Positions 1,161 to 57,341 of a stretch of 64,000 nt of DNA are shown here, one piece after another. The translations under genes and the position numbers were made by a program. The stretch is from the human T2T-CHM13v2.0 reference genome, Homo sapiens. Positions within the stretch are counted from its first letter, which is position 1; the number at the start of each line of letters is the position of its first letter. The DNA is taken from NCBI RefSeq assembly GCF_009914755.1, contig NC_060947.1; one strand, 5' to 3'. The notes under the pieces are model-generated. The model was not told the origin of the DNA. It was given only the letters and a program-made list of their open reading frames with translations, and made no database searches.

Positions 1161-1489
1161 TTTGTTTGTTTGTTTGTTTTTTGTTTTTGAGATGGGGTCT
1201 TGCTCTGTGGCCCGGGATGGAGTGCAATGGCACCATCTCAGCTCACTGCAACCTCCGCCTCCTGGGTTTAAGCAATTCTCCTGTCTCAGCCTCGGGAGTA
1301 GCTGGGATTACAGGTTCACACCACCACGGCCAGCTGAAGTTTCTATTTTTAGCAAAGATGGGGTTTCATCATGTTGGCCAGGTTGGTCTCAAACTCCTGA
1401 CCTCAGGTGATCCACCTGCCTCAGCCTCCCAAAGTGCTGGGATGACAGGCGTCAGCCGGGATGACAGGCATGAGCCACCGCACCGGGTC
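1161..1489 (-). mobile_element. Alu (S-type)
   Basis: Alu body with (TTTG)n tail; TSD aagagt[t/c]gacttcttt at 1144 and 1490. Confidence 0.95.
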
Positions 1490-2057
1490 AAGAGTCGACT
1501 TCTTTTGACCAAGTGCACCCTACTGCTAAATATTTTGACTGAAATTTTGTTTTATTTGGAAAAGTGCCCAATGATAGCTTTTCTTTTTTTTTCCCCCTAG
1601 TGAGAGCAGAGAATGGCTAAAACATCCCCTTTTGGTAGTCTGGTTTGTTTTTTCTGCAGTTTTTTACATTTCAGGAGAAGTTCTTTTCTGCAAAGAGGTT
1701 GGCATACTTCCCTAACGTTGTCTTCTTAATATTACCTTCAAGCCTGCATGGTTTGTACTGAGTAGAGACACAGAACTTGCCCACCTGCCAAATTCATGCC
1801 GATGTCTCATGGAAGAACCATTTTACTTCATCTGCATCAAGTCCTCCCATAAACCGGATTCCAAAGTCGTGGAGAAACCCCGTCTCAATCCTAAGGGAGG
1901 AAGAAAAACAAATGGAACCAGATGAGGGGTCAGAAAAATACAATTGTGACCTCTGTTTCTTTCTGGGACATTTGGACCACGGCCATCAGTCAGATGGCTG
2001 AGAGGATTTAAGGGTCTAACCTAATCGCCTTCTTCCTCTCTTTTTCTGTCTTTGCAG

Positions 2058-2465
2058 CTATTAAGGATTTAGACTTCTTAACCATTTTATCAGAACAATA
2101 GCAGGGAAAGACCTGGATGTTTACCAAGCCTGCCATTAGGGGCCAAGTGGCCACTCCCCATCATCATAATTTGAACCACCATGTAACAGCCATTCCGCCA
2201 AGCAAATAAATTGCTGTAACATGACCTGATTATTTATTACAAGGTCAATATAAGTGAAACAGCCTCACAGTCATCCATCAGGGAGCAAGCGATCCTCATC
2301 ACCTTTGCCATGAAGTGGAACTCTGGGTCGCAGAACATGTAACGTCTGTGTTGGCCATCTCCACAGAGAGAAATTTTCTTTTTAAATTGGAGGAAAGGAA
2401 TTTTGATCATCGCGGGGCTGTCGCGATGGGGGTGTTTGGAAATGGTATAATTATTGCCTTTAAAA
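2058..2465. promoter_or_regulatory. Candidate conserved non-coding enhancer
   Basis: Repeat-free island with clustered TAAT/ATTA and TTTATTAC (2233) homeodomain motifs; conservation not tested. Confidence 0.45.
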
Positions 2466-2482
2466 GCTTGGATCTCATTATC

Positions 2483-2522
2483 GTGTGTATGTATATGTGT
2501 GTGTGTGTGTGTGTGTGTGTGA
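2483..2522. repeat. (GT)n microsatellite
   Basis: Seen directly. Confidence 0.95.
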
Positions 2523-3014
2523 GTGTAAAATCAACTTGTATTTTTTTTTCCCCTTTGCTGATGGTCTCTGCTGACATACATTGTAAAGGCGGATAAGAAG
2601 GATTTGGGAACAGCTTTTGGTCCAACTTGTGCTAAATGTCAGCTACTTGGGGAAAGAGTGGAGTTTGTGCAGAGAAAGAGTCGATTTGGGGAAGCCAGAA
2701 AGATCCCCAGCAGAACGGTTCATATTATCGTATGACCCTACTTGCTATGGCCGAGCCATCACTACCCGGGCTGGAGTGCATTGGTTCTGAATTGTGGGTC
2801 TCTGCCACAGCCGTGAGCTTTACCAGGTTCCTACGTGATCTGCCCGCGTCTCTTTTAGAAGGTGGCGGCAGTGATCGTAACCCACACAATGGAAGTGCCA
2901 GGGCAGCCTGGGGGTGACTCCCTGCCCCACACCTGATTATCAACAACAGGACTTGACTCAACCTATGACACTGTGAACGTCAGTTTTGGGAAAAGTTCCA
3001 ACCTGGGGTCACCT

Positions 3015-3054
3015 GCGTGTGTGTGTGTGTGTGTGCGTGTGTGTGTGTGTGTGT
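3015..3054. repeat. (GT)n microsatellite
   Basis: Seen directly. Confidence 0.95.
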
Positions 3055-3187
3055 CAGGCAAGTGGGTCCAGTGTCGTAGGTTAATCTGTTTATATCTCTT
3101 GTTATAAATTTGAGCAACTTATTTTTAGGCAAAGATATACACGGAGTTTGCTCAATGGGAAAAAAAAAATCACCAAATGCCACTGAA

Positions 3188-53950: not shown

Positions 53951-54210
53951 GATGGCTTTGCTATTCCTATCTGTGCCTGAATAAGCCGCCTCTTTGAGGT
54001 CTTCAATGAATGGTTGTTGAATGAAGGAGTGAGTACGTGGCTTGTTCGGCACATTTCAGCCAAGGATGTTCCACGAAGTGTCAACCATTCTTTCAACAAT
54101 CCATTCATGATCGAGTGAATAAGATGAAATGACATCATGGAATCCATAAGATGAAAAAGCTCAAGAGGAAATAATGAAAGCACAATCATTGTCAGGAAAA
54201 CAAGGGCATT

Positions 54211-54920
54211 GGCCGGGCGCGGTGGCTCACGCCTGTCATCCCAGCACTTTGGGAGGCCGAGGCGGGTGGATCACCTGACCTCAGGAGTTTGAGACCAGCC
54301 TGACCAACATGATGAAACCCCATCTCTACTAAAAATACAGAAATTGGCCGGGCATGGCAAGATCATGCCCCTGCACTCCAGCCTGGGTGGCAGAGTGAGA
54401 CTCCATCTGAAAAAAAAAAAAAAGGAAAGAAAGAAAGAGGAAAGAAAAAGAAAGAAAGAAGTAAGAAAGAGAAAAAAGAAAGAGAAAGAAAGAAAGAGGA
54501 AAGAAGAAAGAAAGAAAGAAAGAAAGAAAGAAAGAAAGAAAGAAGAAAGAAAGAAAGAAAGAAAGAAAGAAAGAAGAAAGAAAGAAAGAAGGAAAGAAAG
54601 AAAGAGAAGAAAGAAAGAAAAAAGAAAGAGAGAGGGAGGGAGGGAGGAAAGAAGGAAGGAAAGAAAGAAAAAGAAAGAAAGAAACAAAGAAAGAAGGAAA
54701 GAAGGAAAGGAGAGAGGGAAGTGGAAGGGAGGCAAGGGGGAGGGAGGGAGTGAAGGAGGGAGGGAAGGAAAGAAGGAAGGAAGGAAGGACAAAAGAAAGA
54801 GAGAGAGAAAGAAAAGAAGAAAGAAAGAAGAAAAGAAAGAAGAAAGAAAGGAAAGAAGAAAGAAAAGAAAGAGAAAAAGAAAGAAAGAAGGAAGGGAGAG
54901 AGGAAGGAAGGAAGGAAGAA
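54211..54920 (+). mobile_element. Internally deleted Alu with a ~500-bp (GAAA/GGAA)n tail
   Basis: Right arm jumps from ggcatggca to agatcatgcccctgc; aagg[g/c]catt flanks both ends. Confidence 0.9.
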
Positions 54921-56330
54921 AGGCCATTAAGATTCCCTAAGCTATGGAGAACATTGATCTATTATGGGTTTCTCATGCTGGTGACGGGGAGAAAGTGGCA
55001 GATGATTGGTGGACGGATGGATACCTGATTTCTCAGAGTCTTGTTATCTTCTGAGTGCCAGGCTATCATTTTATAGAGGAAGCTAATAGAAACGGTCTGG
55101 CAATGGGCCTGGGGTCATCCGCTGGTGAGTAGCCGAGCCTGGTTCTGACGATGCACGTACCTGGCCCACAGGTGGAGGCTGTTAGGGGATGTCATAGGTA
55201 AGCAACAGGCCTTGAGCAGTGCTACCTGGCACTCCACAGCGTGCTAACCACCCCAAATTTTGCAGAAATCCTATAACATAGAAACGTTAAGAAACCTCAG
55301 AGGCAACAGGACTTTCATCCAGAAAGGGCAGGTGCATGGTGAGTCCCCCTGTCTCATCAGCTGGGTAAGAACTGGGTGATATTTCTATTTCTACACACAG
55401 GCTGACTTAGAGGCTTGAAGGTCCATAGCTAAGATCAGGGTGGGTATGGCAGGTGCATGTTCTCCACGTGATTCCATCTCCTGACTGTGCTTTTTGGTAC
55501 CTGGAAAGATCGTCTGTCTCTGAAACGACGGTGTGTGTGCTGCGTTGAAGGTGAACACAGCCCACGGTCATCTCTGCTCTTTTGGAAAAGTCACCACACA
55601 TGTCCACAGATCCTTCCCGGCCAACTCTTTGGCAACTCCAGCAGCTGGGAGTCCATTTTCCTAATTTCTGCTTCTCACCGTAGTTCATAAATCAGAATGC
55701 AGATGAGAGACTCATGGTTAGTTTTCCGCAGCGAGCCCAGAACGTCGGAGCCCAGAAACTGCAGGAAGTCTCGGGCTGTGAATTTCTTGATGCTGACAAG
55801 TCAAACAGCTTAGAAATCATAATTATAAGTTACAAGTGGCTTAGGGGTTGTTCTCCGGACATAAAACTAATTTCATGTTTTTATTCATACTGTGTGAGAG
55901 AAAAGAGGGGAACGGGCTGGCGTTGGAGGGTGCTCCTGCAGATATCACAAGCTCCCTCTCTCAGCCTTAATGAGATCAGACGGCTTGCTTCCTTTTTTGT
56001 TACTGTCTGACTTGCCTTGAGGGGCTTTTGACGACTGTGTGGATGCTGCCCCTGCTTTTTTTCCGAGAGCGTACCTGTGAGGACGTGGCCAACCCAGGGG
56101 GTCTTCACCAATAGGACACCGCATTTGCCCCCAGCACTGTGGCCTCAACATATATCTCTGTAAGAGTCCCCTGGGCCTACCATAAAAAAAGGACCCCAAA
56201 CTGGGGGACTTGAAGCAGCAGAAATAAGATTCTCTGCTTGTTGAGGAGGCCAGAAGGCTGGAAGGAAGGGGTCCCTGGGGTTGATTGCTTCTGGAAACTA
56301 TGATGGCATATTCATTTCATGCCTTTCTCT

Positions 56331-56636
56331 TTTTTTTTTTTTTTTTGGGGGAGGGGGGACAGAGTCTCTCTCTGTCGCCCTGGCTGGAGTGCAGTGGCAC
56401 GATCTCGGCTCACTGCAAGCTCTGTCTCCTGGGTTCACGCCATTCTCCTGCCTCAGCCTCTCAAGTAGCTGGGACTACAGGCACCTGCTACCGTGCCCAG
56501 CTAACTTTTTGTATTTTTAGTAGAGACAGGGTTTCACCATGCTAGCCAGGATGGTCTCGATCTCCCGACCTCGTGATCCGCCCGCCTGGGCCTCCCAAAG
56601 TGCTGGGATGACAGGCGTGAGCCACTGCACCTGGCC
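56331..56636 (-). mobile_element. AluY-like
   Basis: TSD tcatgcctttctct at 56317 and 56637. Confidence 0.95.
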
Positions 56637-56836
56637 TCATGCCTTTCTCTTATGTTCTGGTGATCCCAGCCATCTTTGGTTTGCAGACGCGTCTTTCCAA
56701 TCTCTGCCGTCACCTTCATGGTCTTGATAGCTGTGTGTGTTTTTACGAACTCTCTCGTCTTGTTTATGAGAAGTCTAGTCATTAAATTGAAGGTTCACCC
56801 TAACCCAGTATGACCTCCTAGTCATTTACATCTTAA

Positions 56837-56967
56837 CCCACTTATTCCCAAGGTTGCAAGTTTTTTGAATTTTTGCAATCAGAGCTTGGTGATGACCTTC
56901 AGCCGTAGGATATCAATAACTTCCACAAGCCTAGTGTTCCATTATTGGAACACTAGGCATAAATGAG
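56837..56967. mobile_element. MER85 (non-autonomous piggyBac, PGBD3-derived)
   Basis: TTAA then ccca..tat; ggttgcaa..ttttgaatttttgcaatcaga; gttccattattggaac palindrome; ggcataaatg terminus. Confidence 0.88.
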
Positions 56968-57042
56968 TGTTTACATCTGCAAAGATCCTATTCCCAAGTA
57001 AAGTCCCCTTCACAGATACCGCGGTTAGAAATTGAGCATATT

Positions 57043-57341
57043 GGCTGGGCCCGGTGGCTTGCCCCTGTCATCCCAGCACTTTGGGAGGCCGAGGCAGGCA
57101 GATCACGAGGTCAGGAGATCGAGACCATCCTGGCTAACACGGTGAAACCCCATCTCTACCAAAAATACAAAAAGTTAGCTGGGCATGGTGGCGGGCGCCT
57201 GTAGTCTCAGCTACTCGGGAGGCTGAGGCAGGAGAATCACTTGAACCCGGGAGGTGGAGGTTGCAGTGAGCCGAGATCTCGCCCCTGCATTCCAGCCTGG
57301 GTGACAGAGTGAGAGTCTGTCTCAAAAAAAAAAAAAAAAAA
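57043..57341 (+). mobile_element. AluY-like
   Basis: gagatcgagaccatcctggctaacacgg diagnostic. Confidence 0.95.

What the first reader, a model, noticed from the sequence alone, without database searches (positions are those of the whole stretch)
1439..57075. Same A>C change (TGTAATCCC>TGTCATCCC) in many unrelated Alus, plus A/T>C/G bias in L1
GATGACA/TGTCAT replaces consensus GATTACA/TGTAAT at about 1440, 13566, 22563, 22894, 29596, 34156, 35617, 39893, 45985, 46486, 46706, 50255, 54234, 56606 and 57065. It occurs in Y- and S-type copies, both arms and both strands; TGTCGTCCC/GACGACA variants occur at 7963 and 50714. This is a non-CpG transversion. Relative to my recalled consensus, the L1s also show T>G/A>C (gtgtCtatgtg, cacataGacacc, ccatGactggg, ccatCaaaaag). 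Could reflect GC-biased gene conversion, a context-specific TA mutation process, or Alu-Alu conversion.
Basis: partly seen in the sequence, partly recalled or inferred. Interest (0 to 1): 0.75.

Follow-up and report, generated by a model that had tools for sequence, protein, structure and literature searches.

The report
Telomere-linked A-to-C mutation hot sites
At the recombining tip of the human sex chromosomes, about four in ten Alu repeats carry the same A-to-C letter change that under one in a hundred carry elsewhere, and the same kind of change marks L1 repeats, other chromosome tips and the old chromosome 2 fusion point, likely the scar of an error-prone repair step during sperm formation.

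Summary
All 17 sites are present. Alu position 27 A>C is in 13/40 window copies and 73/183 distal-PAR1 copies, against 0/68 autosomal copies and about 0.7% background. It falls from 62% near the telomere to 3% near the PAR boundary. It occurs in S- and Y-type Alus with no shared private variants, so it is neither a subfamily nor Alu-to-Alu copying. It is not ordinary gBGC: other T>G sites and A>G at the same base are barely raised. Several L1 3'-end sites show the same T>G at W-T-A steps. Genome-wide, carriers cluster in PAR1 (X and Y), at autosomal tips (50/82 versus 7/61 for a control) and around the chromosome 2 fusion site. Published rare-variant data show T[T>G]A enriched 1.25-fold in PAR1, unremarked in the passages I read. 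Best reading: a context-specific germline T>G mutation process tied to male meiotic break repair, likely by translesion synthesis. REV1 inserting C opposite an abasic site is the leading but untested chemistry. Why only some W-T-A sites are hot is unexplained.

The parts
1444..1444 (-). Alu left-arm position 27 A>C (S-type copy 1170-1465)
7966..7966 (+). Alu right-arm position 162 A>C with the subfamily G at 163 kept (Y-type copy 7805-8107)
13570..13570 (-). Alu position 27 A>C (Sg/Sc-like copy 13299-13597)
22567..22567 (+). Alu position 27 A>C (copy 22542-22842, first unit of a 333-bp tandem pair)
22898..22898 (+). Alu position 27 A>C (copy 22872-23182, second unit; may be the same event)
29600..29600 (+). 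Alu right-arm position 162 A>C (copy 29441-29739)
34160..34160 (-). Alu position 27 A>C (copy 33886-34189)
35620..35620 (-). Alu position 27 A>C (copy 35341-35647; source of the 51-mer mapped)
39897..39897 (-). Alu position 27 A>C (Y-type copy 39625-39921)
45988..45988 (-). Alu position 27 A>C (left monomer 45873-46017)
46490..46490 (+). Alu right-arm position 162 A>C (copy 46330-46498)
46710..46710 (+). Alu position 27 A>C (partial copy 46683-46816)
50259..50259 (-). Alu right-arm position 162 A>C (copy 50125-50404)
50717..50717 (-). Alu position 27 A>C with G at 28 (copy 50539-50742)
54237..54237 (+). Alu position 27 A>C (copy 54208-54357; source of the 51-mer mapped)
56610..56610 (-). Alu position 27 A>C (Sg/Sc-like copy 56331-56637)
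57069..57069 (+). Alu position 27 A>C (Y-type copy 57040-57341)
295..911 (-).
41064..41694 (+). L1 3' end carrying three: 41176 (ccatGactggg), 41328 (cacataGacacc, same L1 position as 658) and 41354 (ccatCaaaaag)

Best explanation
A narrow class of W-T-A steps (mostly T-T-A) in PAR1 and other chromosome tips has changed T to G (A to C on the other strand) at up to about 75 times the background rate, likely because error-prone translesion synthesis acts there during repair of male meiotic DNA breaks. Shown: the change, its single product, its restriction to some W-T-A sites in two unrelated repeat families, and its geography (PAR1 gradient, autosomal tips, chromosome 2 fusion site). Inferred: that the cause is mutation rather than fixation bias, and that the geography reflects male break density rather than telomere nearness as such. 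Most speculative: the chemistry. The leading candidate (about 0.3) is uracil in place of T, excision to an abasic site, and REV1 inserting C opposite it, the enzyme already proposed for PAR1's C>G excess. Polymerase eta is the next candidate (about 0.2). Weak gBGC adds at most about 1.4-2.4 fold.
For: Frequency: 73/183 distal PAR1, 7/67 proximal PAR1, 0/68 autosomal. Hazard ratio about 75 against a 0.74% background. Product is C almost only: 72 C, 3 G, 2 T of 169 non-J copies. Gradient 21/34, 15/41, 14/46, 22/48, 6/29, 1/31 from telomere to boundary. Two 51-mers with C: 27 hits in X-PAR1, 32 in Y-PAR1, 1 elsewhere on X, 82 autosomal, of which 50 lie within 6 Mb of an end and 6 within 7 Mb of the chr2 fusion site (0.13 expected). 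A matched W>S control (T>C at position 39) has 7/61 near ends, 0/61 at the fusion and 1 in X-PAR1 (matched pair P=2e-6). L1: one site 8 X-PAR1 hits among the first 100 of 115 C-type hits, vs 15,485 A-type; another 5 X-PAR1 + 3 Y-PAR1 of 19 C-type, vs 1,255 A-type. W[T>G]A 22/409 vs 3/408. gnomAD polymorphisms (two-thirds very rare): T[T>G]A is enriched 1.25x (CI 1.13-1.39) in PAR1, the highest class that is not C>G, while A/C/G[T>G]A are 0.95/0.90/0.88 (PMC6731651 supplement). Paternal break rates rise within 10 Mb of telomeres (PMC11922761). TLS polymerases are implicated in meiotic break repair (PMC7615360). REV1 catalysis is required for T>G from uracil-derived abasic sites in human cells and yeast.
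Against: The known REV1/uracil T>G signature (SBS17b) has NTT context, not TTA, and T[T>G]T is depleted in PAR1 (0.79). The rare-variant excess is only about 72 sites, whereas a fully ongoing 80x rate predicts about 320 from Alus alone under rough assumptions, so today's rate may be lower or short-read calling may miss them. Frequency does not rise with Alu age: S-type 42/100 and 9/28, Y-type 8/20, J-type 1/14, flat across CpG-loss bins. This suits a pulse or a long-context requirement better than a clock. Most W-T-A sites are cold (Alu 121 0/194, Alu 126 2/199; L1 heterogeneity P=4e-11), and left and right arms differ 4-fold despite an identical 16-mer. No new or segregating A/C variant at position 27 was seen directly: the 2 resolved X/Y discordances were at other positions. 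One L1 hot site tested genome-wide with a long pattern showed little PAR1 weight (1 X-PAR1 and 2 Y-PAR1 of 12). The autosomal control is only 48 kb (86 Alu pieces).
Confidence: 0.6

Rival explanations
1. Hotspot drive. A past PRDM9-type binding specificity (or another break-targeting protein) cut A-bearing chromosomes preferentially, so the C allele was copied over them where male breaks are densest.
For: Same geography as male recombination. Frequency is independent of Alu age, as a pulse would give. An intact 5' flank matters: C in 67/139 with intact positions 22-26 vs 6/37 without.
Against: Erosion should hit several motif positions and any disrupting base, but neighbours 12-50 are unchanged and A>G/A>T at 27 are 3 and 2 of 169. 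Five or more unrelated L1 contexts show the same T>G. The class is enriched among mostly rare variants.
Confidence: 0.13
2. Telomere-proximal chromatin or a bound protein or nucleosome, not meiotic breaks, blocks repair or exposes particular TpA steps to damage in the germline.
For: Explains site-to-site differences within one trinucleotide. Hot sites sit in GC-richer flanks (0.49 vs 0.32, P=5e-4) and the A is predicted unpaired in single-strand folds (0.89 vs 0.66, P=0.004). These are post hoc, 7 hot vs 40 cold sites, 4 features tested.
Against: PAR1 far exceeds autosomal tips, and of 28 X hits none lies at Xp 2.4-8 Mb. Three L1 hits do lie at 3.6-8.3 Mb, which weakens this objection.
Confidence: 0.15
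3. GC-biased gene conversion, generic or with a mismatch-specific repair bias, fixes ordinary A>C mutations.
For: The change is W>S and follows the known biased-substitution geography including the chr2 fusion (PMC9413910). gBGC is active in PAR1, B about 0.67 (PMC9575207). CpG decay is lower there.
Against: Other W>S classes rise only 1.13x and A>G at the same base about 2x. The W>S control is not telomeric. With B 0.67-3, even 100% biased repair gives only 2.4-9.4x.
Confidence: 0.05
4. Non-allelic Alu-to-Alu (and L1-to-L1) conversion, or a local source element, spread one variant.
For: Carriers are slightly less diverged from consensus than non-carriers (0.046 vs 0.060 in the right arm).
Against: Shared rare variants per pair are lower among carriers (0.017) than non-carriers (0.032) in positions 1-60. 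The variant sits on S- and Y-type backgrounds and keeps the adjacent subfamily base: 16 CA and 5 CG at 162-163. Common W>S subfamily alleles have not spread. PAR1 L1 copies differ from each other by 7% or more. It occurs on many chromosome ends.
Confidence: 0.04

Closest known systems
Biased clustered W>S substitutions / male-driven gBGC (Dreszer 2007, seen only as described in PMC9413910; Bergman and Schierup 2022, PMC9575207)
   Same: W>S direction; enrichment at chromosome tips, in PAR1 and at the chr2 fusion site
   Different: One product at a few sites, about 75x rather than about 1.4x; other W>S classes are nearly flat; not clustered with neighbouring changes
PAR1 C>G signature of male meiotic break repair (Agarwal and Przeworski 2019, PMC6731651; Hinch 2023, PMC7615360)
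   Same: Regional germline transversion excess in PAR1 attributed to TLS; C>G is also mildly raised in these Alus (0.0137 vs 0.0103)
   Different: Acts on T, in W-T-A context, with extreme dependence on longer context; C>G is spread over many contexts at 1.2-1.6x
SBS17b (uracil, UNG, abasic site, REV1; 10.64898/2026.08.21.746158)
   Same: T>G as the sole product
   Different: Somatic, NTT context; here germline, mainly TTA
SBS9 / polymerase eta, non-canonical AID A>C at WA (context recalled, from no call)
   Same: T>G at W-T-A as recalled
   Different: Expected companion T>C at WA is weak (35/877 vs 6/302, P=0.14; T[T>C]A 1.00 in gnomAD) and T[T>G]T is depleted
PRDM9 motif erosion (recalled)
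   Same: Site-specific change in repeats where breaks are frequent
   Different: Single position and single base; several unrelated contexts

Membership tests
GC-biased gene conversion | All W>S classes favoured to a similar degree | tested here: not met
   T>C 1.13x, non-hot T>G 1.0x, hot site about 75x
GC-biased gene conversion | Follows male recombination geography (tips, PAR1, chr2 fusion) | tested here: met
GC-biased gene conversion | Fixation bias: absent in rare variants, skew to high frequency | tested here: inconclusive
   T[T>G]A 1.25x in mostly rare variants; no frequency spectrum available
Alu subfamily diagnostic change | Confined to one subfamily and linked to other diagnostic changes | tested here: not met
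   S- and Y-type backgrounds; none of 314 linkage tests below P=0.0015
Alu subfamily diagnostic change | Copies scattered like other Alus | tested here: not met
   vs control
Non-allelic gene conversion | Co-transfer of neighbouring donor variants | tested here: not met
PRDM9 motif erosion | Losses at several motif positions and to several bases | tested here: not met
PRDM9 motif erosion | Over-transmission of the derived allele; lineage-limited timing | not testable with these tools
   needs pedigrees and ape genomes
SBS17b (REV1/uracil) | T>G as sole product | tested here: met
   72 C: 3 G: 2 T
SBS17b (REV1/uracil) | NTT context | tested here: not met
   hot sites are W-T-A; T[T>G]T 0.79 in PAR1
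SBS17b (REV1/uracil) | Dependence on UNG and REV1 catalysis | not testable with these tools
   needs mutant germlines
SBS9 / polymerase eta | T>G at W-T-A (recalled) | tested here: met
SBS9 / polymerase eta | Accompanying T>C at WA and T>G at TTT (recalled) | tested here: not met
Quasi-palindrome or template-switch mutation | Derived base extends a nearby inverted or direct repeat | tested here: not met
   best template 5.4 vs 5.3 bases, hot vs cold, P=0.83
Assembly or sequencing artefact | Confined to one haplotype or assembly | tested here: not met
   26 elements carry C on both C23 and C24; 8 unresolved

The most novel reading that the evidence does not exclude
An undescribed male-meiotic mutator with long-range sequence specificity turns selected TpA steps into hypermutable sites as fast as methylated CpG, but only at chromosome ends. 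Alu position 27 then works as a genome-wide, million-copy dosimeter of past male break density that also marks where telomeres used to be.
Probability: 0.4. Interest if true: 0.85.

Novelty: new variant of a known kind. Interest (0 to 1): 0.72.

Why it matters
Why male recombination regions mutate and diverge faster, and which polymerases repair meiotic breaks, are open questions. A one-base, one-product change at CpG-like speed gives a direct handle: it can be counted in existing trio, gnomAD and ape T2T data, dated on the primate tree, and assigned to an enzyme in mouse mutants. It also means that part of the W>S excess at chromosome tips credited to gBGC may be mutational, that 3-mer and 7-mer mutation models miss a strong region-by-context term in PAR1 (which holds the SHOX enhancers), and that the mark can map ancestral telomeres such as the chr2 fusion.

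Tried and rejected
General A>C excess in PAR1 Alus: absent. GTA>GTC as the full context: three other TAC/GTA sites in Alu are cold. K-mer composition of 82 kb non-repeat distal PAR1 vs 24 kb autosomal shows GTA 0.83x and GTC 1.14x, but also TAG 0.78x, so it is weak and confounded. Hairpin strength of the right arm (positions 175-176) does not predict position 162 C. Templating by nearby repeats: none. Strand bias: none (36/79 plus, 37/98 minus). A 20-kb DNA search for the Y copy of the window returned only repeats. X-versus-Y polymorphism test: of 10 discordant hits, 2 were resolved, both at other positions; for 5 the fetched stretch held no orthologue; 3 were not fetched. Whether position 27 still segregates is therefore open. 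The one-strand excess of 671 hits could not be located. Subfamily labels are my own from diagnostic columns, not Dfam calls. L1 counts rest on 7-13 copies per site, 6 of the fetched PAR1 loci being chosen for carrying C at one site (that site was left out of the spectra).
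Full report
Observation. All 17 coordinates hold the change: 13 at Alu position 27 and 4 at the homologous position 162. I built an Alu reference from the data (413 hits in the window, 200 kb of PAR1 samples and 48 kb of Alu-rich autosomal samples), aligned 408 pieces and kept 373 after removing local duplicates. Position 27 A>C is by far the top difference: 73/183 in distal PAR1 (window plus samples below 1.5 Mb), 7/67 in proximal PAR1, 0/68 on autosomes (P=8e-13). 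Position 162: 21/191, 0/63, 1/72. In the whole assembly the exact 26-mer has 185,136 A, 2,857 C and 2,843 G+T copies. On chr1 0-83 Mb the listed hits give 48 C per 100 G+T, a background of 0.74%. The surplus of about 1,490 C copies is matched by about 335 per PAR1 haplotype plus an unlocated one-strand excess of 671.

What it is not. It is not a subfamily: S-type 42/100 and 9/28, Y-type 8/20, J-type 1/14, partial copies 13/21, with no linkage to other variants. It is not copying between Alus: carriers share fewer rare variants than non-carriers, and the adjacent subfamily base is kept. It is not generic gBGC: without the two hot columns T>G is 0.0105 vs 0.0108, T>C is 1.13x, and A>G at the same base is 3/169. 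gBGC is visible as lower CpG decay (52% vs 63%) and lower C>T. With the published PAR1 B of 0.67 and a GC transmission near 66% (maternal figures), even fully biased repair gives 2.4x, and 9.4x at B=3, against about 75x observed. It is not an artefact: 26 elements carry C on both C23 and the Y contig C24, which I recall comes from a different individual.

Not Alu-specific. Eight of the first 100 C-type hits lie in X-PAR1, where about 12 copies of either type are expected at uniform density. Aligning PAR1 L1 3' ends showed further recurrent A>C sites. With subfamily-matched controls, and the selected site left out, T>G is 22/409 at W-T-A, 1/269 at S-T-A and 25/2,329 elsewhere, vs 3/408, 2/270 and 9/2,311 (11 PAR1 copies, 8 controls that also define the reference, which lowers control counts). 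A second site tested genome-wide has 8 of 19 C-type hits in the two PAR1s vs 1,255 A-type (4 of the 5 X hits were already known from my loci). A third, with a long pattern, gave only 3 of 12. W-T-A sites are very unequal (P=4e-11). Hot ones have GC-richer flanks and a predicted unpaired A, and no local template (post hoc).

Geography. Along PAR1 the frequency falls from 21/34 to 1/31. Two 51-mers with C, each listed in full (71 hits each), give 27 X-PAR1, 32 Y-PAR1, 1 distal Xq and 82 autosomal hits. Of the autosomal hits 50 are within 6 Mb of an end, 6 within 7 Mb of the chr2 fusion site (position 114 Mb and PAR1 end 2.39 Mb in this assembly are recalled; PMC9413910 gives 113.5 Mb in its own coordinates), 4 at 6-12.5 Mb and 22 interior, six of these a chr16 cluster that is probably duplicated. 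A W>S transition control with matched flanks has 7/61 near ends and none at the fusion. Each pattern has one PAR1 hit by construction. The patterns need intact CpGs, which favours tips slightly; the control shares this. The fusion signal shows that the process was active while 2A and 2B still had telomeres there (fusion dated 0.9 Mya, CI 0.4-1.5).

Mutation or fixation. In the supplement of PMC6731651 (file 2, sheet fig_5a), T[T>G]A is 356 observed vs 284 expected in PAR1 (1.25x, significant), the top class other than C>G, and it is the only N[T>G]A class raised. The main-text passages I saw mention only C>G. This favours mutation, still active, but the excess (72) is below the roughly 320 that a full 80x rate would give, and three T>C-before-G classes are raised to a similar degree (1.17-1.22), so some fixation or polarisation effect cannot be excluded. 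My own X/Y test was inconclusive.

Mechanism. I commit to error-prone synthesis during male meiotic break repair (0.6). The single product fits REV1's C-only insertion opposite an abasic site left by uracil in place of T, shown to give T>G in human cells and yeast, and REV1 is the proposed source of C>G at meiotic breaks. The context differs from SBS17b, so this is 'works like', not membership. Polymerase eta fits the recalled context but not the missing T>C. Hotspot drive explains the age independence but not the single base or the L1 sites.

Literature seen. PMC9575207: parts 1-4 of 9 and a term search with no 'Alu' or 'trinucleotide' hit; its divergence analysis excluded repeats. PMC6731651: passages, Methods, supplement parts 8-9. 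Passages only: PMC7615360, PMC9413910, 10.1101/108290, 10.64898/2026.08.21.746158, PMC13710866, PMC10705393, PMC11922761. Ten searches listed no paper describing this site or a telomeric W[T>G]A signature. The library lacks most subscription papers, base-change notation could not be searched, and preprint supplements were not seen, so prior description is possible.

Verdict. Real, strong, broader than reported, and not explained by the known PAR1 processes. A new variant of a known kind (regional recombination-linked germline signature); interest 0.72.

Noticed in passing
G000 whole assembly: The C-type 26-mer has 1,093 forward vs 1,764 reverse hits while A-type and G/T-type are balanced; about 671 extra copies suggest a tandem array outside chr1 (rDNA is a guess).
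   Followed up: no
G000:C16:75.8-80.5 Mb: Six interior C-type hits in two clusters, probably segmental-duplication copies of few events.
   Followed up: no
G000:C13, C14, C21, C22 below 14 Mb: Ten of 81 autosomal L1 C-type hits lie on acrocentric short arms; shared duplications or a real signal of recombination between these arms.
   Followed up: no
L056 vs L055 (X 1,025,250-1,025,700 and its Y counterpart): Nine base differences in 450 aligned bases between the two PAR1 haplotypes, well above the PAR1 average diversity of 0.0025.
   Followed up: partly
G000:C23:1.275-1.355 Mb vs C24: The X-to-Y offset jumps from about 21 kb to about 63 kb, a 42-kb structural difference between the two PAR1 haplotypes.
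   Followed up: no
Alu positions 19, 243, 248 in distal PAR1: Mild A>C excess at C-A-C (29/1,464 vs 5/573), and 2/7 at an L1 T-T-G site; T[T>G]G is also raised in gnomAD (1.16x). Possibly a weaker arm of the same process.
   Followed up: partly
window 28815-29739, 22542-23182, 47137-47662: Tandemly multiplied Alus (three, two and about three units), among many VNTRs such as 42-, 105-, 27-, 50- and 89-base arrays.
   Followed up: no
window 34160 and 35620: C-carrying Alus flank the annotated conserved enhancer at 34543-35213 on both sides; no function implied.
   Followed up: no
G000:C23:3.6, 5.4, 8.3 Mb: Three L1 C-type hits just beyond the present PAR boundary, though no Alu 51-mer hits lie there; could date from a larger ancestral PAR.
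   Followed up: no
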